A stretch of 32,000 nucleotides of DNA from an uncultured Actinomycetes bacterium. GTDB taxonomy: Bacteria > Actinomycetota > Actinomycetes > S36-B12 > CAIYMF01. Under the pieces are notes generated by a model. That model was not told the DNA's origin. It saw nothing but the letters and a program-made list of their open reading frames with translations, and made no database searches. This document shows, in pieces, positions 4,865-21,094 of the stretch. The stretch covers positions 2,340,001-2,372,000 of the forward strand of contig CAWJMG010000003.1 of assembly GCA_963843975.1 (NCBI GenBank). Reading direction: 5' to 3'. The position numbers were made by a program, and so were the translations under genes. Numbering within the stretch: the stretch's first letter is position 1; the number at the start of each line of letters is the position of its first letter.

Positions 4865-6322
4865 ATGACCGATTCCTACGACCTCCTCGTCGTCGCGAAC
4901 CGGCTGCCGGTGTCCGCGGACGAGCAGCCCGACGGCAGCACCGAATGGACCCGTTCTCCGGGCGGCCTCGTCAGCGCTCTCGAGCCCGTGCTGCGCGAGC
5001 ACGCTGCGGCCTGGATCGGATGGTCCGGCCGCTTCGCCCCCGACCCCTACTCGACCGACGACCTCGGCCGGGAGCTCGAGCCGATCCCCGACGGCGTGGG
5101 TCCGTGCGCGCTGCTCGAGGTCGAGCTGACGCGTGAGGAGCTGGAGGGCTACTACGAGGGGTTCAGCAACTCCACGATCTGGCCGCTCTATCACGACGCC
5201 ATCGCCACGCCGGTCTACCACCGGCACCACTGGGACCCGTACGTCGAGGTCAACCGTCGCTTCGCCCGACGGGCGGCCGACCTCGCCGCCGAGGGCGCGA
5301 CGGTGTGGGTGCACGACTACCAGCTGCAGCTCGTGCCTCAGATGCTGCGCGAGATGCGGCCCGACCTACGCATCGGCTTCTTCCTGCACATCCCGTTCCC
5401 GCCCGAGGAGCTGTTCCTTCAGCTGCCGTGGCGCAGGCAGATCCTCGAGGGGCTGCTCGGCTCGGACCTCATCGGCTTCCACACGCCGGGAGGCGCGGCG
5501 AACTTCCTGCGCATCGCAGGGCGCCTGCTGCACCTCGACTTCGACGAGACCGGCATCGACGTGCCGGACTCGTCGCGCGCCTCCGGCGTACGCCGGGTCA
5601 CCGTCGGCGCGTTCCCGATCTCGATCGACACGCGCGAGTACGACGCGATGGCCCGCACGGCCGAGATCCAGGACCGCGCCATCGAGCTGCGCGAGAAGCT
5701 GGGCAACCCCCGCTGGGTGCTGCTCGGCGTGGACCGCCTCGACTACACCAAGGGCATCGACATCCGCCTCAAGGCGTTCACCGAGCTGCTCGCGGGCGGC
5801 ACGATCGAGCCCGGCGAGGCCGTGTTCGTGCAGATCGCGACTCCGAGCCGCGAGAACGTCGAGGACTACCAGCGTCTGCGCGACGACATCGAGCTCATGG
5901 TCGGCCGCGCGCTCGGCGACCACGGCATCCTCGGACCGCCGCCGATCCAGTACCTCCACCAGCCGTTCGACCGCGAGACGCTCGTGTCGTTCTACCTGGC
6001 GGCCGACGTCATGCTCGTGACGCCTTACCGCGACGGCATGAACCTCGTGTGCAAGGAGTACGTCGCGTCGCGCGTCGACGGCACCGGCGCGCTCGTGCTG
6101 TCGGAGTTCGCCGGCGCCGCGGTCGAGCTGACCCAGGCGTTCCTCGTGAACCCGTACGACGCCGAGGGCATCAAGCAGGCGCTCGTTGACTCCATGCGCG
6201 GCGAGCCCGGCGACCTCGGCCTGCGGATGAAGGCGATGCGGGAGCACCTCTTCGAGTACGACGTCGCTCGCTGGGCGTCGTCCTTCCTCGGAGCCCTCGA
6301 GAAGTCAGGCACCGGCCGGTGA
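4865..6322 (+). CDS. otsA: Alpha,alpha-trehalose-phosphate synthase (GT20)
   Basis: 485 aa. LLVVANRLPV N-terminus, WVHDYQLQLVPQMLR, LGVDRLDYTKGI, and MLVTPYRDGMNLVCKEY are typical OtsA blocks. The stop overlaps the otsB start (GTGA at 6319-6322). Confidence 0.92.
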   Translation: MTDSYDLLVVANRLPVSADEQPDGSTEWTRSPGGLVSALEPVLREHAAAWIGWSGRFAPDPYSTDDLGRELEPIPDGVGPCALLEVELTREELEGYYEGFSNSTIWPLYHDAIATPVYHRHHWDPYVEVNRRFARRAADLAAEGATVWVHDYQLQLVPQMLREMRPDLRIGFFLHIPFPPEELFLQLPWRRQILEGLLGSDLIGFHTPGGAANFLRIAGRLLHLDFDETGIDVPDSSRASGVRRVTVGAFPISIDTREYDAMARTAEIQDRAIELREKLGNPRWVLLGVDRLDYTKGIDIRLKAFTELLAGGTIEPGEAVFVQIATPSRENVEDYQRLRDDIELMVGRALGDHGILGPPPIQYLHQPFDRETLVSFYLAADVMLVTPYRDGMNLVCKEYVASRVDGTGALVLSEFAGAAVELTQAFLVNPYDAEGIKQALVDSMRGEPGDLGLRMKAMREHLFEYDVARWASSFLGALEKSGTGR

Positions 6323-7093
6323 GCGCCGCTGCCGTGGAGCCTCTGCTGCGCGCGGCGCTGATCGCGGCGTCGCGGGCGCCGCAGCTTCTGGTGGCGTGCG
6401 ACTTCGACGGCACCCTCTCGCCGATCGTCGCGGACCGCGACGCTGCCCGCGCTCTGCCGGAGTCGCTCGACGCCCTCGGTGTGCTGACGGCCTTGCGCGA
6501 CACCACGGTCGCCGTCGTCTCAGGCCGCGCCCTGCGCGACCTCGCCACCGTGGCGCACCTGCCCGAGGGCGTCGTGCTCGTCGGCAGCCACGGCGCCGAG
6601 CTCGACGACGAGGAGCCGGACGCCGAGACGGCGAGCCGGCGCGAGGCGCTCATCGCGGCCGTGCGCGACGCCGTCGGGGACGTGACCGGCGTCGAGCTCG
6701 AGCTGAAGCCCGCCGGTGTCGCGGTGCACGTCCGGGCTGCGGCCCGGGCGGACGCGACCCGGGTGCTGGAGTCGCTGCGCAGCGGCCCGGCGGTGATGGC
6801 CGGTGTCGTGGCGATCGCCGGCAAGGAGGTGCTCGAGGCTCTCGGTCCTCAGCATCGACAAGGGTTCGGCGCTCGACGTCCTGCGCCGCCGTACCTCGGC
6901 CACGACCACCGTCTTCCTCGGCGACGACCTCACCGACGAGTCCGGCTTCGACCACCTGCTGCCCGGCGACCTCGGCGTGAAGGTCGGCCCCGGCGCCACC
7001 GGCGCCGAGCACCGCGTGCCCGACCCGGTCGTGGTGGCCGACGCCCTCGGGCTGCTCGCCACCGAGCGCGCCGCCTGGCTCGCGGGCACCTGA
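6319..7093 (+). pseudogene. otsB: Trehalose-phosphate phosphatase, reading frame broken by an apparent 1-nt insertion near 6838
   Basis: The N-terminal part is in the frame of ORF 6319..7551 (HAD motif I LVACDFDGTLSP, motif II VVSGR, ..IAGKEVLE). The C-terminal part is in the frame of ORF 6803..7093 (LSVLSIDKGSALDVL...FLGDDLTDESGF...GVKVG). Removing one G of GAGGCT (6835-6840) gives the continuous sequence GKEVLELSVLSIDKG. Total length is 775 nt = 3n+1. Confidence 0.8.
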
Positions 7094-7149
7094 CCGGCTG
7101 CCGTCTTCTGAGTGCTGCCGGATCGGCTCGATCCCTTCCGGAGACCCCG

Positions 7150-7161
7150 GTAACCGGTTAC
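7150..7161. promoter_or_regulatory. Perfect 12-bp palindrome GTAACCGGTTAC in the msiK leader/promoter region
   Basis: Read directly. 50% GC in a GC-rich background, 84 nt upstream of ATG 7245. Function unknown (operator or RNA element). Confidence 0.35.
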
Positions 7162-7244
7162 TGTGCGAGGGCCGGGCAACGGTCCGGCGTCCTTCCACTA
7201 CGGATCGTCCGGCACGTTCCTGCCGGTGAAGGGTTGGCTCTGCT

Positions 7245-12476: not shown

Positions 12477-12477
<1 letters not shown>
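11476..12477 (-). CDS. rlmB: 23S rRNA (guanosine-2'-O)-methyltransferase, SpoU/TrmH family
   Basis: The real start is ATG 12477 ([15 protein letters not shown]..., a basic N-terminal tail), overlapping the cysS stop (ATGA). Motifs [56 protein letters not shown]. The 614-aa track ORF is an artefactual upstream extension. Confidence 0.9.
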
Positions 12478-13898
<1,421 letters not shown>

Positions 13899-13954
13899 GG
13901 GCGCAAGCCTAACGGCGCCAGCAGGTCACCCCCGACCGCGCAGACGCCTCATCC

Positions 13955-13981
13955 CGTCGTTTCCGACGCCGGGAGACGACG
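13955..13981 (-). terminator. Hairpin CGTCGTTTCC-N7-GGAGACGACG between the PPOX stop and the cysS start
   Basis: 10-bp arms with one mismatch or wobble. Shares the string ATCC(C)GTCGTTTCC...GACGACG with the hairpin at 11412-11462. Confidence 0.45.
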
Positions 13982-14010
13982 CGCCGACCCGCCGGAGCGG
14001 AGCTGAGCGG

Positions 14011-14406
14011 TCAGTAGTGGACGACCTTGTCGGGCGAGATCCGCACGACGACGCGGACGTTGTCGGTGCCGTCGTCGCCGGGGTAGCGGTCGGTGCCGCG
14101 GTACTTGTGCGAGTGCGCCTCGATGAGCTCGCGGCCACCCTCGCGCGTCATGTCGGCAGTACCCCGGATCTCGACGTAGGTGTACGCCGACTCCTTCGGG
14201 TACAGCAGCACGGTGCACCGCGGGTCGGCGAGCAGGTTGCGGTGCTTGCGGCGCCCCTCGACGGTGGAGACGAGGATGTCGTCGCCGTCGCGGCTGACCC
14301 AGACCACCGACAGGTGGGGTCGCCCGTCGGGCTCGATCGTGGCGATGGTCGCGAACTCGGCGGAGTCGAACCACGCCTTCTCAACGTCCGTGAGTGAAGT
14401 CGGCAT
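14011..14406 (-). CDS. PPOX-class (pyridoxamine 5'-phosphate oxidase-like) probable F420-dependent enzyme
   Basis: ORF 14011..14442. Start set at ATG 14406 (MPTSLTDVEKAWFDSAEFATIATIEPDGRPHLSVVWVSRDGDDILVSTVEGRRKHRNLLADPR). Typical split-barrel PPOX family sequence. Confidence 0.8.
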   Translation of the reverse strand: MPTSLTDVEKAWFDSAEFATIATIEPDGRPHLSVVWVSRDGDDILVSTVEGRRKHRNLLADPRCTVLLYPKESAYTYVEIRGTADMTREGGRELIEAHSHKYRGTDRYPGDDGTDNVRVVVRISPDKVVHY

Positions 14407-14589
14407 GCGTTCCATCCTGTGCGAGGGGGTGCTCTCTCGCACCCACTTACCCCGATAACCGGCGGGTACGCGCCCGCGAGCCGGTGATCGACGTCACGCT
14501 GCGTCCGGGATGGGGTCGAATCCGTGCATATCTGCCAGATCCGGTCACTCTCCGCGATCGTCCTCGGTGTCACCGGGCGACCGCGTCCG

Positions 14590-15568
14590 TCAGGGAACGG
14601 GGAGTCCAGCCGCCCTCAAACCACGGAACGCCACCACACGGTCTCGCCACCGGCCGCCGAGGATCACGGCGCCGACCAGCAGGGCGACGGGCGGCACGAG
14701 GACTCCGACCGCGATCAGAAGCAGCAGGACCACGTCGGTGACCCCCCATCCATGACCGAGGCGCGAACGGAGCGGTCGCGGCATGGCCACCAGCGAGGCG
14801 ACCAGCCACGCGGCGCCCAGGACGGCCACCGCCACGGCGGCGACCGGGCTGATCCAACTCGCGAGCTTGCAGAACGCCACCACGAGGGCAAGTCGACCCT
14901 CGAGTACCCGACGGGCCGAGATCCCCGCCTGCACCAGCATTCCCCGGGCCTCGACCCACGCGGGGTCGAGGGCCACGGCTCGACCAAGGAGCATCGTGCC
15001 GCGCCGGAGGGCGCCGAGATCGACGAGTATCAGGCCGAGGTTCCCCAGGGCAACGTGATAGTCCGGTTGCGCATGCATCGCGCGCGCCCACCACACGATC
15101 GAGATGCCGGTGTCCTTCTCGAGGATCCCCGCGGTGTTCAGCACCATGGGATCGAGCGGGCTGAGCGACAGGGCGACGTCCAGGTGGGCGCGAGCCGCGT
15201 CGGGCTGGCCCAGCTCGTTGAGCGAGAGCGCCATGAGGTTCTGGCCCTGGACGTTGGACGGGTCGAGCTCGAAGCGCACGGCTCACCCACCGGTGCGTGT
15301 CCAACGAGTCACCGTTGCGCGAGGCGACCAGCCCGCACACGACCAGCACCTCTGGGTCGTCGGGGGCCGCGGCCGCAGCCCGCGCCAGCAGTGACCGAGC
15401 TGTCGCGATCTCCCCGGACTGCCGTGCCGCCTCGGCCGAGAGCACGAGCACCTCGCCGTCCTCCGGCCATCGCGCGAGGAGCGGGCCCAGGATCCGTCTG
15501 GCCTCCTCGGTCTTGCCGAGGTTCAGGGCATGCTCGGCTCGGCGCCGCTCCTTGTAGTCGTCGCTCAT
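14590..15568 (-). pseudogene. TPR-repeat protein with C-terminal multi-TM anchor, paralog of 15565..16602, interrupted by a +1 frame change near 15270-15282
   Basis: The N-terminal 96 aa (MSDDYKERRRAEHALNLGKTEEARRILGPLLARWPEDGEVL...DTHRWVSRA) are in the frame of ORF 14570..16117. The remainder (FELDPSNVQGQNLMALSLNELGQP...TM helices) is in the frame of ORF 14590..15279. Both parts align colinearly with the intact upstream paralog. Length is 979 nt = 3n+1. ATG 15568 overlaps the upstream stop (ATGA). Confidence 0.7.
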
Positions 15569-16602
15569 GCGGGTGGGAGGCGGACGCCGAGGGCTCGGAG
15601 GCGGCGATCGGCGCGGATGCGGTTCCAGGCGAGGCGCCCCGTGACGGTCAGCGCGAAGACCGCGATCCACAGGATGGCCGTGGTCGGGCGGGTCACCGGC
15701 ACGACGAGCCCGCTCGTCACGGCCATCGCGAGCACGGTCATCGCACCGACGAGAAGGTCCTGCGCGCCCATGGACGCGCCGAGCCGTCGGCGGGCCGGTG
15801 CCGGCAGCCGGGCCACGCCGACAACGGTCCACGCGAGCGCGAGCAGGATCAGGACCCACGCGCCAGGCAGCCCTAGATAGGCCAGAGCTGCCGCGATCAC
15901 CGTGCCGAGGCCGAGGCGGCTCATCAGCACACGGCGGGTCAGCGCCCCCACGATGTCGAGGTTGTCGCGCAGCAGCTCCATCCGCGGGTCCAGCGCCATC
16001 GCACGACCGAGCAGCCGGGACGCCCTGTGCAGGTCGCCGCACCTCAGCCGCACGGCCGCGAGGTCGTTCAGGGCGTAGACGTGCTCCGGCGCGACCTCCA
16101 GCGCGCGCACGTAGCACGCTGCGGCGTCGCCGAGCTGGCCGGCCGCGTCGAAGGCGATGCCCTGCGCGACGAGGAGGTCCGGGTCGAGCGGGCTGTGGCG
16201 CAGCGCCTCGTCGGCGTACACCAGCGCCTCGGAGCCCCGGCCCCTCTCGGCCTGGACGAGCGACATCACGTTGAGCGCGTGCGGGGAGTCAGGTGCGATC
16301 GCGAGCGCGCGCATCGCCCAGAAGTGCGCCGCCTCGAGGTCGTGCGACTCCCGGGCCACGCTCGCGCAGCCGACGAGGATGTCGAGATCGTCGGGGGCCG
16401 CCGCCGACGCGCTGCGGGTCAGCAGCTGCGCGCGGGCGAAGGCCTTCTCGTCGCAGCACGCGCGGGCCAGCAGCAGCAGGGCCTCGGCATCCTCGGGCGA
16501 GCGCGCGAGCACCTGCTCGAGGATCGTCCGTGCCTCGGCCGGACGCCGCAGCTCGAGCGCCGCCTCGGCCCGCGCCTTGGCGACCGTCGGCTCTAGGATC
16601 AC
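15565..16602 (-). CDS. TPR-repeat protein with C-terminal multi-TM anchor (function unknown)
   Basis: 345 aa. About 6 TPR-like helix pairs (..ARSPEDAEALLLLARACCDEKAFARAQ.., ..ALAIAPDSPHALNVMSLVQAERGRGSEAL.., ..ALEVAPEHVYALNDLAAVRL..), then about 4 hydrophobic helices (GLGTVIAAALAYLGLPGAWVLILLALAWTVVGV, LLVGAMTVLAMAVTSGLVV, AILWIAVFALTVTG). GTG 16602 overlaps the AAA+ stop (GTGA). Confidence 0.75.
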   Translation of the reverse strand: MILEPTVAKARAEAALELRRPAEARTILEQVLARSPEDAEALLLLARACCDEKAFARAQLLTRSASAAAPDDLDILVGCASVARESHDLEAAHFWAMRALAIAPDSPHALNVMSLVQAERGRGSEALVYADEALRHSPLDPDLLVAQGIAFDAAGQLGDAAACYVRALEVAPEHVYALNDLAAVRLRCGDLHRASRLLGRAMALDPRMELLRDNLDIVGALTRRVLMSRLGLGTVIAAALAYLGLPGAWVLILLALAWTVVGVARLPAPARRRLGASMGAQDLLVGAMTVLAMAVTSGLVVPVTRPTTAILWIAVFALTVTGRLAWNRIRADRRLRALGVRLPPA

Positions 16603-17831
16603 AGCAGCCGCCGCTGCTTCAGGTAGGCCTTGAGGTCGTCGTACTGCCCGCTGGCGTTGGCGAACTCGACGACGGTCTTAGCGGTCTCGAGCCACGGCAT
16701 CGCCGACGGACGCACCTCCGCCAGAGCAGCCCTGACGTCGTCCATGCCGATCAGGCGCACCGTGCCCGATCGCACCGAGTCGACCATGGCGCGCTCGGCA
16801 GCCGACTCGCACACGAGCGCGATGTCGGCGCCGGTGAGCCCGTCGCTCGACGCGGCGAGGGCCCCGACGTCGATACCGGTGACGGGTCGGTTCTTGAGGT
16901 GGTGGCGGAAGATCGCCTCGCGCGCCTCGAGATCCGGCGGCAGCACCGCGAGCATCCGGTCCAGCCTGCCCGGGCGGCGCAGCGCCTCGTCGACGTCCCA
17001 CGGGTGGTTGGTGGCGGCGAGGACGAAGACTCCCTCGTTGTTGTCCTCGACGCCGTCGAGCTCGTGCAGGAGCTGGTTGACCGAGTTGCGCGCGCCGGAG
17101 TTGCGGTTCTGGCTGCGCTTGAGGGCGAGAGCGTCGACCTCGTCGAGGAAGAGCACGCACGGCGCCTTGGCGCGAGCAGCCTGGAACACGTCGTGGATGT
17201 TGCGCTCGCTCGAGCCGACCCACATGTCGAGCACGTCTGAGAGGGCGACCGAGATGAACGCCGCGTCGAGCTCGCCGGCCACCGCACGCGCGAGGTACGT
17301 CTTGCCACATCCGGGCGGGCCGTAGAGCAGCAGGCCGCCGCGCAGCGACTTGCCGTACGCGGCACGGAGCTCGGGGTTGCGCATCGGCATCAGGAACGAG
17401 ACCTCGATGCGCTCCTTGACCTCCTTCATGCCTCCGACGTCGGTCAGCCGCAGGCTCGGGCGCATGACCTCGGTGGGGTAGCCGGTGGCGGGCGACGACT
17501 CGACGAACATGGGCTCGACGACGCCGGCCATGTCGGCGTCGGCCGCCTCCCAGTCGAACTCCGCGGCGGCCGCGACGCGGTACGGCACGGCCTCCGGAGC
17601 GACGTCGTCGTCGGTCGCGGCTGCGGGTTGCCGGCTCGACAGCGCCTCGGCCATGAGCGCCTGCGCGGCCGCGTCGTCCGGACGTGCTCCGAGGACGACC
17701 GCCGCGTGCGCCACGGCCTCGGTCGGCCGACCGGCGTCGAGCAGCAGCCTCGCCACGTGCAGGCGCAGGACCGCGTCGTCCGGGCTGGCCTCCACTGCGG
17801 CGAGCAGGCTCATGATGAGCGCGTCGTCCAC
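16599..17831 (-). CDS. Single-cassette AAA+ ATPase (classic clade) with N-terminal TPR/MIT-like helical domain and acidic linker
   Basis: 410 aa. Walker A LLLYGPPGCGKT, Walker B VLFLDEVD, SRH AATNHPWDVDEALRRPGRLDR. The GTG start sits 6 nt after AAGGGGGA and 30 nt after the ispF stop. Confidence 0.85.
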   Translation of the reverse strand: MDDALIMSLLAAVEASPDDAVLRLHVARLLLDAGRPTEAVAHAAVVLGARPDDAAAQALMAEALSSRQPAAATDDDVAPEAVPYRVAAAAEFDWEAADADMAGVVEPMFVESSPATGYPTEVMRPSLRLTDVGGMKEVKERIEVSFLMPMRNPELRAAYGKSLRGGLLLYGPPGCGKTYLARAVAGELDAAFISVALSDVLDMWVGSSERNIHDVFQAARAKAPCVLFLDEVDALALKRSQNRNSGARNSVNQLLHELDGVEDNNEGVFVLAATNHPWDVDEALRRPGRLDRMLAVLPPDLEAREAIFRHHLKNRPVTGIDVGALAASSDGLTGADIALVCESAAERAMVDSVRSGTVRLIGMDDVRAALAEVRPSAMPWLETAKTVVEFANASGQYDDLKAYLKQRRLL

Positions 17832-17861
17832 GTCGTCCCCCTTCGAATCCGTGGCGAGGTG

Positions 17862-18353
17862 TTAGAGGCGCACGACCAACGCCGTGGCGATCGCCGCGAG
17901 ACCCTCGCCGCGACCCGTGAGCCCCAGCCCGTCCGTGGTCGTGGCGGACACCGACACCGGTGCGCCCACGACCTCGCTCATGGCTGCCTCGGCAGCGTGC
18001 CGGCGCGGGCCGACCTTGGGCCGGTTGCCGATGATCTGGACGCTCACGTTGCCGATGGTCCAGCCGTCCTCGGCCAGCAGCCGCACGACCTCGGAGAGCA
18101 GTGCCGAGCCCGAGGCCCCGGCCCACTCCTCGCGGTCGGTGCCGAACACCGAGCCGAGGTCGCCGAGGCCGGCGGCCGAGAGGAGAGCGTCGCAGGCGGC
18201 GTGCGCGGCGACGTCGCCGTCGGAGTGCCCGGCCACACCGGTCTCACCGGGCCAGACGAGGCAGGCGAGCCAGAGCTCGCGCCCGGCCTCGAAGGGGTGG
18301 ACGTCGACGCCGATGCCGACGCGCGGCAGGTGCGGCAGGTCAGCTGACGACAC
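17862..18353 (-). CDS. ispF: 2-C-methyl-D-erythritol 2,4-cyclodiphosphate synthase
   Basis: 163 aa. [22 protein letters not shown], and the [16 protein letters not shown] motifs. The GTG start overlaps the ispD 3' end by 14 nt. Confidence 0.92.
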
Positions 18354-19065
18354 CGGCAGCCCTCCGTCGCGCGAGCACGGCCTCGGCCAGCACCAGGTCG
18401 ATCGGGCGCGTCACCTTGAACGCCTCCTCGTCTCCGGGCACCACGAGCACGGGGACGCCCTGGGCCTCGACGAGGCCGGCGTCGTCGGTCGCAGGCAGGT
18501 CGGGGTCGGATGCCGCGTGCGCCGCGGTGAGCACCTGGCGCGTGAAGCCTTGCGGCGTCTGGATCGCGCGCAGGGCAGAGCGGTCGAGCGTGGTGACGAC
18601 CGTGCCGTCGGCGTCCACCTGCTTGACCGTGTCGGCCACGGGGATCCCGGGGACGACGGCGGGCGCACCGGCGCGCACCGCAGCGGCCACGGCGTCGATC
18701 AGCGAGGTGGGCACGAGCGGGCGCGCGGCGTCGTGCACGAGGACGACGTCGACCTCGGTGGGCAAGGACACCAGGGCGCGCGCGACGGAGTCCTGCCGCG
18801 TCTCGCCGCCCGACACCACCATCGACGGCGCGACGCCGGGAGCCGAGTCGAGGAGGTTGTGCTCCGCGAGCAGGGCGACGACGTCGGCCACGCCGTCCTC
18901 GGGAGCCGCGATCACGACGAGGTCGACCGACCGCGCCGTGGCAAGCGCCCGGACGGCGTGCACGAGCATGGGGACGCCGCCGAGCAGCCGGAGCGCCTTC
19001 GGCGCACCCGGCCCGAGCCTCTCCCCACGCCCCGCCGCCGGGACGACCGCTGCGGTCAACGTCAC
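18340..19065 (-). CDS. ispD: 2-C-methyl-D-erythritol 4-phosphate cytidylyltransferase
   Basis: Start set at GTG 19065 ([18 protein letters not shown]...), overlapping the upstream stop (GTGA). [10 protein letters not shown] and IQTPQGF motifs. The track ORF 18340..19779 is over-extended. Confidence 0.9.
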
Positions 19066-20168
19066 CTGGCGGCGCCGCTGGTCACGGTCGGCTTGGCGAA
19101 CACGAGGCGGCCGTTGGCCGTCGTGAGCACGCTGGTCACCATCACACGCACATCCTGGCCCACGCGGTCGCGTGCGTGCTCGGTGACGACCATCGTGCCG
19201 TCGTCGAGGTAGCCCACGGCCTGGCCCTGCTCCTTGCCCGCCTTGAGCAGGTGGAGGTCGACCTCGTCGCCGACGACCACGAGCGGCCGGAGGGCGAGGG
19301 CGAGGCCGTGCAGGTTGAGGACCCGGACGCCCGCGATCGCGGCGGCCTTGGCGAGGTTGGTGTCGAAGGTCAGCAGGGCGCAGTTGCGGTCGATCGACAT
19401 GCGCACGAGCTTGGCGTCGACGTCGGTGACGGAGATGGCCTCGTCCGGGATCGTCTGGACGTCCACCCCCTGCTCGTGGCGCAGCGCCTCGAGCACGTCG
19501 AGGCCGCGACGGCCCTTGGCGCGGCGGTGCTCGTCGGAGGAGTCGGCCATGGCCTGCAGCTCGTCGAGGACGGGCTGCGGGACGAGGAAGCGGCCGTGGA
19601 GGAAGCCCGAGCGGACGACGTCGAGCACGCGCCCGTCGATGGCCACGGAGGTGTCCACGAGGCGCGGGAGGGTGACCGAGGCCGGCTTCACGGTCGCGAG
19701 GCCCGCGCGGCCGCCGACGGCCTGCATGACGGCGTCCCGGCGCGAACGCCCGACGCGGAAGCCGAAGAAGCTGACGCACGCCACGACGAACACGAAGACG
19801 GGCAGGACGATCAGCGGAGGTCCGAGCAGGAACAGCGGCCAGGTGATCACCGCGCCGAAGACCGCCCCGACCATGGCGCCGAACGCACCGGCGATGGCCT
19901 GCTCGGGCGAGAGGCCCTCGAGGACCCGCTCGCCGCGGTCGAGCGTGCGCACGGTCAGGCGCGCGACGACGCCGCCCAGGACGTACCCGAGCATCGCGCC
20001 GATGATCGCACCGAGCCAGAGCCCGGAGAAGGGCCCGAGGACCTCACCGGAGGGCTGCGCGCCCATCCGGTCGGCGACCTCGTAGCCGACACCGGCGCCG
20101 AACACGACGACCATGAGGCGTAGTGCCTCGACCATCACGCTGGGGACTCGCGAGAGCTTGAGGGCCAT
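19062..20168 (-). CDS. PIN/TRAM domain membrane protein (YacL-like)
   Basis: Start set at ATG 20168, 8 nt after GAGGAGGA. Four N-terminal TM helices, a PIN-like core (RLVDTSVAIDGRV...), and a C-terminal TRAM-like beta domain (VRVMVTSVLTTANGRLVFAKP). Same position relative to ispDF as B. subtilis yacL. Confidence 0.8.
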   Translation of the reverse strand: MALKLSRVPSVMVEALRLMVVVFGAGVGYEVADRMGAQPSGEVLGPFSGLWLGAIIGAMLGYVLGGVVARLTVRTLDRGERVLEGLSPEQAIAGAFGAMVGAVFGAVITWPLFLLGPPLIVLPVFVFVVACVSFFGFRVGRSRRDAVMQAVGGRAGLATVKPASVTLPRLVDTSVAIDGRVLDVVRSGFLHGRFLVPQPVLDELQAMADSSDEHRRAKGRRGLDVLEALRHEQGVDVQTIPDEAISVTDVDAKLVRMSIDRNCALLTFDTNLAKAAAIAGVRVLNLHGLALALRPLVVVGDEVDLHLLKAGKEQGQAVGYLDDGTMVVTEHARDRVGQDVRVMVTSVLTTANGRLVFAKPTVTSGAAR

Positions 20169-20237
20169 GCTGCCGTTCCTCCTCACGAGGACCGGGCAGT
20201 GGTGCCACCCCGGGGGGCGTCGACGCGGGCGCGCCGA

Positions 20238-20720
20238 TCAGGAGGCGAGAACCTCGTCGAGGATCGCCTCTGCCTTGTCCTCGTTTGTGTTCTCGGCAAG
20301 TGCGAGCTCCGACACAAGGATCTGGCGCGCCTTTGCGAGCATTCGCTTCTCGCCGGCGCTGAGGCCACGCTCACGCTCACGGCGCCAGAGATCGCGGACG
20401 ACCTCGGCCACCTTGATGACGTCGCCGCTGGCCAGCTTCTCGAGGTTGGCCTTGTAGCGGCGCGACCAGTTGGTCGGCTCCTCGGTGTAGGGCTGGCGCA
20501 GCACGTCGAAGACGCGGTCCAGGCCCTCCTGGTTGACCACGTCGCGCACGCCGACGAGGTCGACGTTGTCCGAAGGCACCCGAACCGTGAGATCGCCCTG
20601 GGCGACGCGCAGGACCAGATAGTCCCGCTCGACCCCCTTGATCACGCGCTTCTCGATGGCCTCAATGAGGGCTGCACCGTGGTGCGGGTAGACAACAGTG
20701 TCACCGACCGTGAACGTCAT
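20238..20720 (-). CDS. carD: CarD family RNA polymerase-binding transcriptional regulator
   Basis: 160 aa. [39 protein letters not shown] (RID/Tudor-like) plus a C-terminal helical domain. Synteny with ispDF as in mycobacteria. Confidence 0.93.
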
Positions 20721-20750
20721 AGGTGGAGATCCCCTTTCCAGGTACCGACG

Positions 20751-20759
20751 AGTTTACCA
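20751..20759 (-). promoter_or_regulatory. Candidate extended -10 (TGGTAAACT) for carD
   Basis: The minus strand reads GCGTGGTAAACTCGTCG. TAAACT fits TANNNT and is preceded by a TGN. The predicted TSS is about 24 nt upstream of ATG 20720, with AAAGGGGA as the SD. No convincing -35. Confidence 0.35.
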
Positions 20760-21094
20760 CGCTCCCAAGACCCGTCGGAGGGCGTTGTCGCAGGTCAGAG
20801 GCCTGATCGGGGCTTGACAAACGGCGACGGACGCGCATGGCCCGGCCGCTGCGGCGTGCCGGAACCGCCCGCGGCCGGGGCGCTCGCCCACGGTAGGCGG
20901 GGGCTCCGACGGTCGCCGGCGGACCTCGCGGGCACCACCCGGAGGGGTGGGCGACGGGGCCCGGACGGGGGGCCGCCGGGTGCGTCCCGGAGCATGCGGC
21001 GTCACTGCTCCGTCGCAGGTCACGGGCGGTGGCGGGGCGCTCATGCCCTAGGCTGGCCGAGCCCGATCCGACCGGTCCCGCTAGGAGCGCTCCC

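What the first reader, a model, noticed from the sequence alone, without database searches (positions are those of the whole stretch)
14590..17831. Uncharacterised AAA+ / TPR-membrane three-gene module in a variable slot of the ispDF-cysS-rlmB block
Three minus-strand genes make up the module:
- 17831->16599: AAA+ ATPase.
- 16602->15565 and 15568->14590: two paralogs, each with about 200 aa of TPR repeats followed by about 4 predicted TM helices.

The genes are chained by 4-nt GTGA/ATGA stop-start overlaps. The first begins only 30 nt after ispF behind its own SD. They therefore look co-transcribed with ispDF and translationally coupled.

From memory, M. tuberculosis has rlmB-like/cysS1/ispF/ispD/carD/lpqE (Rv3579c-Rv3584) with nothing between ispF and cysS, and B. 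subtilis has gltX-cysE in that position. This trio, plus the PPOX gene, therefore occupies a variable slot of a deeply conserved block.

No protease, nuclease or other effector domain is present, and I know of no characterised system with this composition. Working hypothesis: the membrane-anchored TPR proteins act as adaptors that recruit a soluble unfoldase/extractase to the membrane.
Basis: partly seen in the sequence, partly recalled or inferred. Interest (0 to 1): 0.7.

Follow-up and report, generated by a model that had tools for sequence, protein, structure and literature searches.

The report
AAA+ unfoldase with membrane TPR partners
Downstream of ispD-ispF this actinobacterium carries a soluble AAA+ protein-unfolding ATPase followed by two membrane-anchored TPR proteins (one frameshifted here); the ATPase-plus-TPR-membrane gene pair recurs across many bacterial phyla, has been mentioned once in the literature, and has never been studied experimentally.

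Summary
The genes are real, with one correction. The third gene is not an intact ORF. One extra base (C at 15271) shifts its frame, while close relatives carry it intact.

The AAA+ protein has two N-terminal TPR repeats and a single Cdc48-D2-like AAA domain. The next gene encodes 6 cytoplasmic TPRs plus 4 TM helices. The 4-nt overlaps and the 30-nt gap after ispF are confirmed.

The core is a two-gene unit. In about 70 of 82 loci from at least 8 phyla the ATPase sits next to a TPR-plus-multi-TM gene, usually with overlapping stop and start. No third gene is co-conserved.

Popp et al. 2024 noted this pair in one sentence as "MIT+Vps4-like AAA -> TPR+6TM" in other phyla. No experiment exists, and here MIT and Vps4_C domains are not detectable.

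Features not in that note:
- Actinobacterial members have 1-3 fast-diverging TPR-TM paralogs.
- They sit repeatedly beside MEP-pathway operons (ispDF, or dxr-rseP-ispG).
- Two Streptomyces fuse the ATPase to a trypsin-STAND-TPR protein.

Most likely it is a membrane-docked ATP-driven protein remodeller. Its substrate and biological role are unknown.

The parts
16599..17831 (-). AAA+ ATPase, 410 aa: N-terminal 2-TPR domain, disordered linker, conserved FDW/PMFV helix, single classical AAA domain, family-specific C-terminal helices
   Evidence: ORF. Pfam AAA 7e-44, TPR_19, AAA_lid_3. AF2 model pLDDT 77. Foldseek best hit is p97 D2, E 9e-25. 15-sequence alignment has 66% mean column identity.
17634..17831 (-). 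N-terminal TPR domain of the ATPase (residues 1-66; four helices 3-15, 20-32, 36-49, 54-65)
   Evidence: AF2 pLDDT 85-95. Pfam TPR_19 5e-7 and no MIT hit at E<=1. Best PDB sequence hit is the TPR protein PA4667.
17502..17558 (-). Conserved linker motif (residues 92-110: FDWeAAdadm...ePMFV) between the N-domain and the AAA core; candidate docking peptide
   Evidence: F92, W94, A97, P107, F109 and V110 are invariant or >=90% conserved within an otherwise variable linker. Helix 94-102 in the AF2 model. A docking role is inferred.
16767..17459 (-). AAA core: Walker A GPPGCGKT (171-178), pore loop DMWVG (202-206), Walker B FLDEVD (228-233), sensor-1 N275, SRH/Arg fingers RRPGRLDR (285-292), lid
   Evidence: The motifs are read directly from the translation. 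Their residues are invariant across the 15 aligned sequences, except Trp204 (Trp, Tyr or Phe, always aromatic) and Val232. dN/dS is 0-0.08 against L089.
16602..16766 (-). Family-specific C-terminal extension (residues 356-410: ...RPS..PWLETA..V..FAN.SG.YD.L..YL)
   Evidence: Conserved columns. Helices 363-372, 377-391 and 398-406. phmmer finds 205 50%-identity clusters, with the motif always at the C-terminus of ~400-470-aa proteins or fragments. No Vps4_C hit.
16599..16602 (-). GTGA stop/start overlap between the ATPase and TPR-TM gene 2
   Evidence: Sequence. The same 4-nt or 1-nt overlap occurs in 32 of 53 downstream partner genes in other loci. Independent gene calls agree.
15565..16602 (-). 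TPR-TM protein 'T2', 345 aa: 6 cytoplasmic TPRs (residues 5-204, nt 15988-16602) plus 4 TM helices (residues 212-338, nt 15589-15969), Arg-rich loop LPAPARRRLG and basic C-terminal tail
   Evidence: Pfam TPR families. AF2 pLDDT 86. The TM half has no Pfam-A model. Orthologue of the second TPR-TM gene of L001 (67% id). It is a divergence hot spot against L089: 73% aa identity, DNA identity down to 66%.
15565..15568 (-). ATGA stop/start overlap between T2 and T3
   Evidence: Sequence.
14590..15568 (-). TPR-TM paralog 'T3', disrupted: frame A runs 15568->~15272 (residues 1-99), frame B runs 15270->14590; repaired product is 325 aa
   Evidence: ORF list and sequence. Repaired protein gives Pfam TPR_14 3e-15 and TPR_19 1e-13. 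Intact in L089 and L090.
15271..15271 (-). Single extra base (C) causing the frameshift in T3
   Evidence: MAFFT alignment of the window gene with L089 and L090: a one-column gap in both relatives at GCGCTT[C]GAGCTC.
17832..17861 (-). 30-nt ispF-AAA intergenic spacer with Shine-Dalgarno-like GAAGGGGGA (17844-17836)
   Evidence: Sequence. No promoter-like or terminator-like site in 13800-20900, though that scan is uninformative for high-GC genomes.
17862..19059 (-). ispF (17862-18353) and ispD (18340-~19059), the upstream genes of the same transcription direction
   Evidence: Pfam YgbB 1.6e-54. IspD identified by synteny with Pfam-annotated L001 and L085 and by phmmer.

Best explanation
The unit is a membrane-proximal AAA+ remodelling machine made of two kinds of parts.

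**The two parts**
- The soluble ATPase is presumably a hexamer, like other classical AAA proteins. It has every motif needed to hydrolyse ATP and thread a polypeptide through an aromatic pore loop.
- The TPR-TM proteins are polytopic membrane proteins whose 6-TPR domain faces the cytoplasm.

**Proposed mechanism**
- The genes are made together through overlapping stop and start codons.
- I propose that the proteins form a complex in which the TPR-TM protein tethers the ATPase to the membrane and selects its targets. Candidate contacts are the ATPase's own 2-TPR N-domain and the conserved FDW/PMFV linker peptide.
- The ATPase would then unfold, extract or disassemble membrane or membrane-associated proteins. 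No peptidase is attached in this organism.
- The 1-3 fast-diverging TPR-TM paralogs would be alternative adaptors.

**What is shown and what is inferred**
- Shown: domain content, intact catalytic motifs, TPR topology, tight gene coupling, and co-conservation across phyla.
- Inferred: complex formation, hexamer, substrate threading, the adaptor role, and the biological process served.

In this window the module is expressed from the ispDF operon, and its second adaptor gene is frameshifted.
For: **Active unfoldase features**
- Walker A/B, the pore loop (M-W/Y/F-V/I-G), sensor-1 and the Arg fingers are conserved across the 15 aligned sequences.
- The core is under strong purifying selection, dN/dS 0-0.08.
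- The best sequence and structure matches are the threading unfoldases Cdc48/p97 D2, PAN and FtsH.

**Partnership**
- 68 of 82 loci have a same-strand adjacent TPR+multi-TM gene by phmmer. L018 and L038 were added by inspection.
- L016 and L066 have divergent or overlapping partners. Of the remaining loci, L058 and L081 are cut right after the AAA gene and L029 and L036 right before it. L043, L033, L067, L075, L078 and L080 have sequence on both sides but no TPR-TM gene.
- The next most frequent neighbour cluster occurs in only 9 loci.
- 32 of 53 downstream partners overlap the ATPase stop by 4 or 1 nt. Prodigal and PGAP calls agree.
- The phyla include Actinomycetota, Planctomycetota, Bacteroidota, Verrucomicrobiota, Cyanobacteria, Acidobacteriota, Myxococcota, Pseudomonadota and Bacillota.

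**Topology**
- The TPR domain starts at residue 5 with no signal or TM segment. Arg-rich segments follow TM2 and TM4.

**Adaptor-like evolution**
- The ATPase is 59-84% identical across lineages in which TPR-TM proteins are only 25-40% identical.
- Copy number varies from 1 to 3.
- The ATPase N-terminal 140 residues evolve faster (dN/dS 0.29-0.37) than the core.

**Independent literature**
- Popp et al. 2024 inferred a 'membrane-proximal complex' for the same pair.
Against: - There is no direct evidence of interaction. A partial Mantel (mirror-tree) test of the ATPase N-domain against the partner TPR gave r = 0.11, p = 0.04, which is too weak to count.
- No multimer prediction could be run.
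- The substrate is unknown, and no peptidase or other output domain is present in the window.
- A few loci lack a detectable partner: L033, L075, L078 and L080. L043 has a 4-TM partner without TPRs.
- The TPR-TM proteins could be the substrates rather than the adaptors.
- Genomic context ranges from housekeeping operons to plasmid ends and to fusion with a protease-STAND protein. The family may therefore not have one single role.
Confidence: 0.5

Rival explanations
1. ESCRT/Vps4-like cycle. The TPR-TM protein is not an adaptor but the working membrane element, taking the place of Snf7/ESCRT-III as Popp et al. suggest. It would oligomerise in the membrane, and the ATPase would be its dedicated disassembly or recycling factor, as Vps4 is for ESCRT-III or Pex1/6 for the TPR receptor Pex5.
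For: - Popp et al. classify the ATPase as VPS4-like and note that snf7 is 'displaced' by the TPR+6TM gene.
- The architecture resembles Vps4: a small helical N-domain, a flexible linker, one AAA domain and C-terminal helices.
- The one-to-one gene coupling fits a dedicated substrate.
Against: - MIT (PF04212) and Vps4_C (PF09336) are not detected at E<=1 in the window protein or in 7 members from other phyla.
- CdvC HMM scores (165-192 bits) are lower than CDC48, PAN and FtsH scores (194-231 bits).
- The C-terminal region matches Cdc48/Afg2 better than archaeal Vps4: E 1e-4 against 0.05.
- Nothing in the TPR-TM sequence indicates polymerisation.
Confidence: 0.15
2. Conflict or defence system. 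The fast-evolving TPR arrays would sense an invader. The TM domain, or a protease fused in some relatives, would be the effector. The AAA+ ATPase would activate or reset it. On this view the ispF-cysS slot is simply an insertion site.
For: - Two Streptomyces encode single ORFs of 1487 and 1467 aa, 40% identical end to end. Each joins Trypsin_2, a STAND NTPase, TPRs and this family's N-TPR and AAA domains, and is followed by a TPR+~7TM gene.
- Streptomyces copies lie near the ends of linear plasmids, beside TOPRIM, endonuclease and IS5 genes.
- The distribution is patchy across phyla.
- The partner is a divergence hot spot with mosaic dS, and partners undergo birth and death.
- T3 gives a weak TPR-S hit (PF20308, 8e-5, below cut-off).
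Against: - PADLOC finds no model for the TPR-TM proteins and only generic IetA/TRIP13 matches for the ATPase. IteA scores 143 bits against a 510-bit cut-off.
- In the window's clade the module sits in conserved synteny inside a housekeeping operon across deep branches, with 4-8 nt overlaps to neighbours.
- T2 has dN/dS 0.32, so there is no positive selection overall.
- No toxic effector domain is present in the window.
Confidence: 0.15
3. Isoprenoid- or envelope-specific role. In the window's actinobacterial clade the machine would act on MEP-pathway enzymes or on polyprenyl-phosphate-dependent membrane enzymes, controlling their quality, turnover or assembly. An alternative is that it works with the site-2 protease RseP/Rip1.
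For: - The module is recurrently placed beside the two separate MEP operons.
- It lies downstream of ispD-ispF in the window, L001, L006, L085, L086, L087, L089-91 and L094.
- It is divergent from dxr-rseP-ispG in L004, L088 and L096.
- ispF-linked members lie on several deep branches of the ATPase tree.
- My rough estimate, which is an inference, is that two independent placements next to MEP loci among ~30 contexts has p of order 0.004.
Against: - Most other members have unrelated neighbours: GGDEF, Maf, aldo-keto reductase, NMO, a TPP enzyme, Ffh, Ddl and RNase T. This covers Streptomyces, Mycolicibacterium, Nocardia, Micromonosporaceae, Acidimicrobiia and all non-actinobacterial phyla.
- The estimate is post hoc.
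- Vertical inheritance of one old insertion explains most of the ispF-linked cases.
Confidence: 0.1

Closest known systems
Bacterial 'MIT+Vps4-like AAA -> TPR+TM(s)' gene pair noted by Popp et al., mSystems 2024 (PMC11237479; example Oter_1429/ACB74714.1, Opitutus terrae)
   Same: - Both are a single-AAA ATPase with a small helical N-domain, followed on the same strand by a gene for TPRs plus a multi-TM domain.
- My set includes members from the same phyla, including an Opitutaceae MAG (L044). They are homologous to the window proteins over full length: ATPase 37-42% identical, partners at phmmer 1e-8 to 1e-24.
- The function is unknown in both.
   Different: - Actinobacteria were not listed in that paper.
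- The window partner has 4 TM helices, not 6, and there are 1-3 paralogs.
- The N-domain scores as TPR, and MIT is not detectable.
- The module is embedded in MEP-pathway operons.
- I could not retrieve ACB74714.1 itself to align it.
Vps4 / CdvC (ESCRT-IV)
   Same: - One classical AAA domain with a small alpha-helical N-domain on a flexible linker and C-terminal helices.
- It acts next to membranes.
   Different: - No MIT domain, no Vps4_C domain and no ESCRT-III/Snf7/PspA neighbour.
- HMM scores favour Cdc48, PAN and FtsH over CdvC.
Cdc48/p97 with membrane recruiters (Ubx2, Dfm1/derlin), Msp1/ATAD1, Pex1-Pex6 with Pex15/Pex26
   Same: - The D2-like AAA fold is the best sequence and structure match.
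- The concept is the same: a soluble or anchored AAA extractase brought to a membrane by an integral membrane partner. This comparison rests on established knowledge.
   Different: - It has a single AAA ring domain instead of two, and no double-psi barrel N-domain.
- The partner is a TPR+4TM protein unrelated to UBX/SHP, derlin or Pex15.
- No ubiquitin-like system is involved.
FtsH
   Same: - It is a classical AAA domain with similar HMM scores (206 bits) and has a membrane context.
   Different: - It has no TM anchor in cis and no M41 metalloprotease domain. The score of 206 bits is far below the 600-bit cut-off.
EccA (type VII secretion TPR-AAA ATPase)
   Same: - It has N-terminal TPRs followed by one AAA+ domain, occurs in Actinobacteria, and is associated with a membrane machine. 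This rests on established knowledge.
   Different: - EccA has a CbbX-type AAA domain. TIGR03922 scores only 34 bits against a 467-bit cut-off.
- There are no ESX genes nearby.
IetA of the Ietas defence system
   Same: - It is a single classical AAA ATPase. It gives PADLOC IetA 7e-40 and NCBIfam IteA 143 bits.
   Different: - The score is far below the 510-bit cut-off.
- The IetS subtilisin partner is absent and a TPR-TM partner is present instead.

Membership tests
Classical-clade AAA+ ATPase (active enzyme) | Walker A GxxGxGKT, Walker B hhhhDE, aromatic pore loop 1, sensor-1 Asn, SRH with Arg fingers, helical lid | tested here: met
   GPPGCGKT 171-178, FLDEVD 228-233, DMWVG 202-206, N275 and RRPGRLDR 285-292. 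The motif residues are invariant in the 15-sequence alignment except Trp204 (W/Y/F, always aromatic) and Val232. Pfam AAA 7e-44 and AAA_lid_3.
Bacterial Vps4-like AAA + TPR-TM dyad (Popp et al. 2024) | Same-strand adjacent gene encoding TPRs followed by a multi-TM domain | tested here: met
   Window genes 15565-16602 and 14590-15568. Same arrangement in ~70 of 82 loci.
Bacterial Vps4-like AAA + TPR-TM dyad (Popp et al. 2024) | Homology to the members in Verrucomicrobia, Bacteroidetes, Planctomycetes and Cyanobacteria | tested here: met
   tblastn covers residues 1-408 at 37-42% identity. Partner phmmer E 1e-8 to 1e-24. Joint alignment A2.
Bacterial Vps4-like AAA + TPR-TM dyad (Popp et al. 2024) | N-terminal MIT domain on the ATPase; 6TM domain on the partner | tested here: not met
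   No PF04212 hit at E<=1; TPR_19 instead. The window partner has 4 TM helices. Non-actinobacterial partners have 4-6 by hydropathy.
Vps4 / CdvC | MIT domain, Vps4_C helix/oligomerisation domain, neighbouring or cognate ESCRT-III (Snf7/CdvB) | tested here: not met
   MIT and Vps4_C absent at E<=1. NF041006 CdvC scores 168 bits against a 650-bit cut-off, below CDC48, FtsH and PAN. Neighbours are ispF and TPR-TM, with no Snf7/PspA.
Cdc48 / p97 / VAT | Two tandem AAA domains (D1, D2) and a double-psi-barrel N-domain | tested here: not met
   One AAA domain only. TIGR01243 scores 211 bits against an 803-bit cut-off, matching profile positions 446-682 (D2) only. The N-domain is TPR.
FtsH | N-terminal TM anchor and C-terminal M41 zinc protease | tested here: not met
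   No TM segment in the ATPase. No Peptidase_M41 hit. TIGR01241 scores 206 bits against a 600-bit cut-off.
Proteasomal ATPases (PAN / Mpa-ARC) | Coiled-coil/OB N-domain and C-terminal HbYX or GQYL tail for 20S docking | tested here: not met
   The C-terminus is ...YLKQRRLL. PRK03992 scores 201 bits against 500, and pup_AAA scores 131 against 505.
Ietas (IetA/IetS) anti-phage system | IetA ATPase at equivalog score plus adjacent IetS serine protease | tested here: not met
   NF042959 scores 143 bits against a 510-bit cut-off. No protease in the module.
EccA (T7SS) | CbbX-type AAA with a 6-TPR N-domain, in an ESX locus | tested here: not met
   TIGR03922 scores 34 bits against a 467-bit cut-off. 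No ESX genes in the window neighbourhood.
Membrane-tethered AAA-adaptor complex (functional class) | Physical binding of the ATPase to the TPR-TM protein | not testable with these tools
   No multimer prediction was available. The mirror-tree test was inconclusive (partial r 0.11, p 0.04).

The most novel reading that the evidence does not exclude
The pair is a previously unrecognised, widespread bacterial membrane-protein extraction and remodelling machine. Functionally it would be an analogue of Msp1, or of Cdc48 with derlin. The 4-6-TM bundle of the TPR-TM protein would provide the membrane site and client selection, and the Cdc48-D2-like ring would provide the pulling force. In the window's actinobacterial clade it would be wired to isoprenoid or polyprenyl-phosphate-dependent envelope biogenesis through co-transcription with ispDF.
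Probability: 0.15. Interest if true: 0.8.

Novelty: new variant of a known kind. Interest (0 to 1): 0.55.

Why it matters
Outside FtsH, bacteria have few known ATP-driven machines that act on proteins at the cytoplasmic face of the membrane. This gene pair is present in at least eight phyla and has no experimental data at all.

This window and its relatives add three concrete handles:
- **A testable physiological context.** The module lies in an operon with ispDF, or beside dxr-rseP-ispG.
- **Natural variation in adaptor number.** There are 1-3 paralogs, one of them broken here.
- **A Rosetta-stone fusion.** In two Streptomyces the ATPase is fused to a trypsin-STAND-TPR protein.

If the adaptor/extractase model holds, it would define a new branch of bacterial membrane proteostasis. 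If the conflict-system reading holds, it would be a new defence architecture. Either outcome is informative. On present evidence, however, it remains an uncharacterised combination of two very common domains.

Tried and rejected
1. **Characterised family by sequence.** Pfam, NCBIfam and PADLOC gave only generic AAA and TPR matches.
2. **Solved structures.** PDB sequence and Foldseek searches returned p97 D2 for the ATPase and generic TPR arrays (OGT, CTPR, IFIT, APC) for the partner. Nothing covered the TM half.
4. **Vps4 membership.** Rejected, because no MIT or Vps4_C domain was found and the CdvC score is lower.
5. **Third conserved gene.** All-against-all clustering of ORFs within 6 kb found none. 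The other large clusters are antisense ORFs of the ATPase.
6. **Mirror-tree co-evolution test.** Inconclusive.
7. **Family size from the 56-aa C-terminal signature.** Only 205 clusters were found. The query has low power and many hits are fragments.
8. **Promoter and terminator scan.** Nothing was found, which is uninformative at 72% GC.
9. **Exact-protein look-up of the window ATPase.** The closest named relatives are 'Candidatus Nanopelagicales' MAGs.
10. **Word-based search with T2 alone.** It found only 8 close homologues. The profile search was swamped by generic TPR proteins after about 30 true members, all named only 'tetratricopeptide repeat protein'.
11. **Literature.** Six full-text searches found only the one-sentence mention in Popp et al. 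and no follow-up.
12. **RseP link.** An M50 protease lies near the pair in L041 as well, but one case among ~45 non-actinobacterial loci is compatible with chance.

Full report
**1. What is in the window**

The window has 72% G+C. On the minus strand it carries carD (20238-20720), a yacL-like PIN/TRAM membrane protein (19062-20186), ispD and ispF (17862-18353). Next come the three genes of the finding, then an F420-type PPOX gene (14011-14442), cysS (12477-13898) and rlmB.

The GTGA overlap (16602-16599), the ATGA overlap (15568-15565) and the 30-nt spacer after the ispF stop are also confirmed. The spacer carries GAAGGGGGA 4 nt upstream of the GTG.

The third gene is not as described.
- 15568->14590 is 979 nt. 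The protein is split between two frames, with a TGA at 15285-15283 closing the second frame upstream.
- A close relative (L089) has an ATPase 90% identical and a third gene 95% identical in DNA. It and a second relative (L090) carry the gene intact, at 325 and 329 aa.
- The window differs from both by one extra C at 15271 in GCGCTT[C]GAGCTC.
- After repair the gene is 97% identical to L089 in protein, with dN/dS 0.155.
- The frameshift is therefore very recent or an assembly error. I cannot tell which.

**2. The proteins**

The ATPase:
- The AF2 model (pLDDT 77) gives four N-terminal helices, i.e. two TPR motifs (residues 3-65, pLDDT about 90).
- A disordered linker follows (67-90), then a short conserved helix carrying FDW and a PMFV motif.
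- Next come one AAA domain with lid and three family-specific C-terminal helices.
- All catalytic and pore-loop motifs are present. Their residues are invariant in a 15-sequence alignment spanning 59-100% identity, apart from two positions: the pore-loop Trp204 (Trp, Tyr or Phe, always aromatic) and Walker-B Val232.
- The best sequence and fold matches are the D2 domain of p97/Cdc48.
- NCBIfam scores are CDC48 211, FtsH 206, PAN 201 and CdvC 168 bits. All are far below the family cut-offs.

The partner (T2):
- The AF2 model (pLDDT 86, pTM 0.81) shows 6 TPRs (residues 5-204) and four hydrophobic helices.
- The TPR domain starts at the N-terminus without a signal or anchor. The loop after TM2 (LPAPARRRLG) and the C-terminal tail are Arg-rich.
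- The TPRs therefore face the cytoplasm. This is read from the sequence using the positive-inside rule.
- The TM half matches no Pfam-A family.

**3. The conserved unit is a pair, and it is widespread**

- More than 120 full-length homologues of the ATPase at 58-90% identity come from Nanopelagicales-like MAGs, Nocardioides, Acidimicrobiales and others.
- A pattern scan of one genome per species returned 80 loci from Actinomycetota, Planctomycetota, Bacteroidota, Verrucomicrobiota, Cyanobacteria, Acidobacteriota, Myxococcota, Pseudomonadota and Bacillota.
- I called ORFs in all loci and searched them with the window, L001 and L004 proteins.
- 68 of 82 loci have a same-strand adjacent TPR+multi-TM gene. 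Two more (L018, L038) were found by inspection.
- Two loci have a divergent or overlapping partner. Of the rest, L058 and L081 are cut right after the AAA gene and L029 and L036 right before it; L043, L033, L067, L075, L078 and L080 have no TPR-TM gene next to the ATPase.
- No other gene family is shared by more than 9 loci.
- In 32 of 53 downstream partners the start overlaps the ATPase stop by 4 or 1 nt. Public gene calls show the same.
- The ATPase is well conserved, but the partners are only 25-40% identical between lineages. They vary from 1 to 3 copies:
  - T-T-AAA-T in Nocardioides zeicaulis (L004).
  - AAA-T-T plus a C-terminal remnant of a third copy in L001.
  - AAA-T in L085.

**4. 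Literature**

Six full-text searches found one relevant source, Popp et al., mSystems 2024 (PMC11237479). [quoted passage not shown] Oter_1429). [quoted passage not shown]

That is the same pair as my non-actinobacterial loci, including an Opitutaceae MAG (L044). There is no experiment and no follow-up.

I tested the Vps4 label.
- MIT and Vps4_C are not detected at E<=1 in the window protein or in seven members from those phyla. The N-domains score as 2-4 TPRs.
- CdvC never outscores CDC48 or PAN.
- The C-terminal region matches Cdc48/Afg2 better than archaeal Vps4.

I therefore file it as 'works possibly like Vps4 or Cdc48', not as a Vps4 family member.

**5. Context**

- In the actinobacterial clade nearest the window the module is found downstream of ispD-ispF. 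This holds for the window, L001, L006, L085, L086, L087, L089-91 and L094. In L094 the ATPase start overlaps ispF by 8 nt.
- Alternatively it is divergent from dxr-rseP-ispG (L004, L088, L096).
- On an NJ tree of the ATPase core the ispF-linked members occupy several deep branches. That position is probably ancestral.
- Elsewhere the neighbours are unrelated.
- Streptomyces copies lie near the ends of linear plasmids, beside TOPRIM, endonuclease and IS genes.
- Two Streptomyces (L037, L040) encode uninterrupted ORFs of 1487 and 1467 aa that are 40% identical throughout. Each joins a trypsin-like peptidase, a STAND NTPase, a TPR array and this family's N-TPR and AAA domains. Each is followed by a longer TPR+~7TM partner.

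**6. Interpretation**

The shown facts are these: an enzymatically intact threading-type AAA+, cytoplasmic TPR domains on a polytopic membrane protein, tight translational coupling, co-conservation across phyla, and adaptor-like rapid evolution and copy-number change of the partner. They fit a membrane-docked AAA+ remodeller in which the TPR-TM protein tethers and targets the ATPase.

Complex formation, substrate and role are inferred and not shown. My only co-evolution test was inconclusive.

The rivals are:
- A Vps4-like cycle in which the TPR-TM protein is itself the substrate.
- A conflict or defence system. The Streptomyces fusions and plasmid contexts support it. Housekeeping-operon synteny, dN/dS below 1 and the absence of PADLOC hits argue against it.
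- A role tied to the MEP pathway, prenyl carriers or RseP. Recurrent linkage supports it, but only in one clade.

**7. Verdict**

The module is real, conserved and uncharacterised, but the pair was already noted in the literature and the 'trio' is lineage-specific.

It is a new variant of a known kind: an AAA+ unfoldase with a membrane partner. Interest is moderate. The MEP-operon linkage and the protease-STAND fusion are the most useful new leads.

Noticed in passing
L037 6752-11215 and L040 6473-10876 (two Streptomyces sp.): These are uninterrupted ORFs of 1487 and 1467 aa, 40% identical end to end. Each fuses a trypsin-like peptidase, a STAND NTPase (nSTAND5/AAA_16), a TPR array and this family's N-TPR and AAA domains. 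The next gene is a longer TPR + ~7TM partner.
   Followed up: partly
window 15565-16602 versus L089 1533-2576; whole operon 13700-18050: Divergence between two close relatives is mosaic. The background is ~90-93% DNA identity. T3 is 95-99% identical (dS 0.09). T2 is 66-86% identical (dS 0.54, 73% aa identity), lowest in its TM half. This suggests recombination or relaxed constraint on one adaptor gene.
   Followed up: partly
L001 11423-11755: Downstream of its two intact TPR-TM genes, the Nanopelagicales MAG keeps only a C-terminal (TM-region) remnant related to window T3 (34% identity over 111 aa). The TPR-TM paralogs therefore undergo birth and death.
   Followed up: partly
L094 5517-6008 / 6001-7203: In this Actinomycetes MAG the ATPase start overlaps the ispF stop by 8 nt. 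This is tighter coupling to ispDF than the 30-nt gap in the window.
   Followed up: no
L043 11287-11823: The gene overlapping the ATPase stop by 4 nt encodes a 178-aa protein with four TM segments and no TPR domain. It may be a partner reduced to the membrane part.
   Followed up: no
L034, L037, L039, L040 partner genes: Some actinobacterial partners are 490-540 aa with about 7 predicted TM segments instead of 4. L039 has two such genes in tandem.
   Followed up: no
L041 1989-3332 (Aureispira MAG); also L004, L088, L096: An RseP-type M50 site-2 protease lies within 2 kb upstream of the pair in a Bacteroidota MAG. It also lies next to the pair in the dxr-linked actinobacterial loci. This is probably chance, but it recurs.
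   Followed up: no
window 7182-7240 (+): Rfam msiK RNA motif (RF01747, 56 bits, E 2e-11). It is presumably the leader of the MsiK-type ABC ATPase gene seen at the syntenic position in relatives.
   Followed up: no
window 14011-14442 and the ispF-cysS interval in relatives: The F420-dependent PPOX-class gene (TIGR03618, 113 bits) is present between the module and cysS in the window, L001, L089-91 and L094. It is absent in L085 and L086, and cysS itself is missing from this position in L087. The slot really is variable.
   Followed up: yes
L092 (Streptomyces goshikiensis linear plasmid, 28 kb from the end): The pair is annotated only as 'ATP-binding protein' and 'hypothetical protein'. It lies among TOPRIM, ASCH, DNA/RNA endonuclease, IS5 transposase and trypsin-like protease genes.
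   Followed up: no
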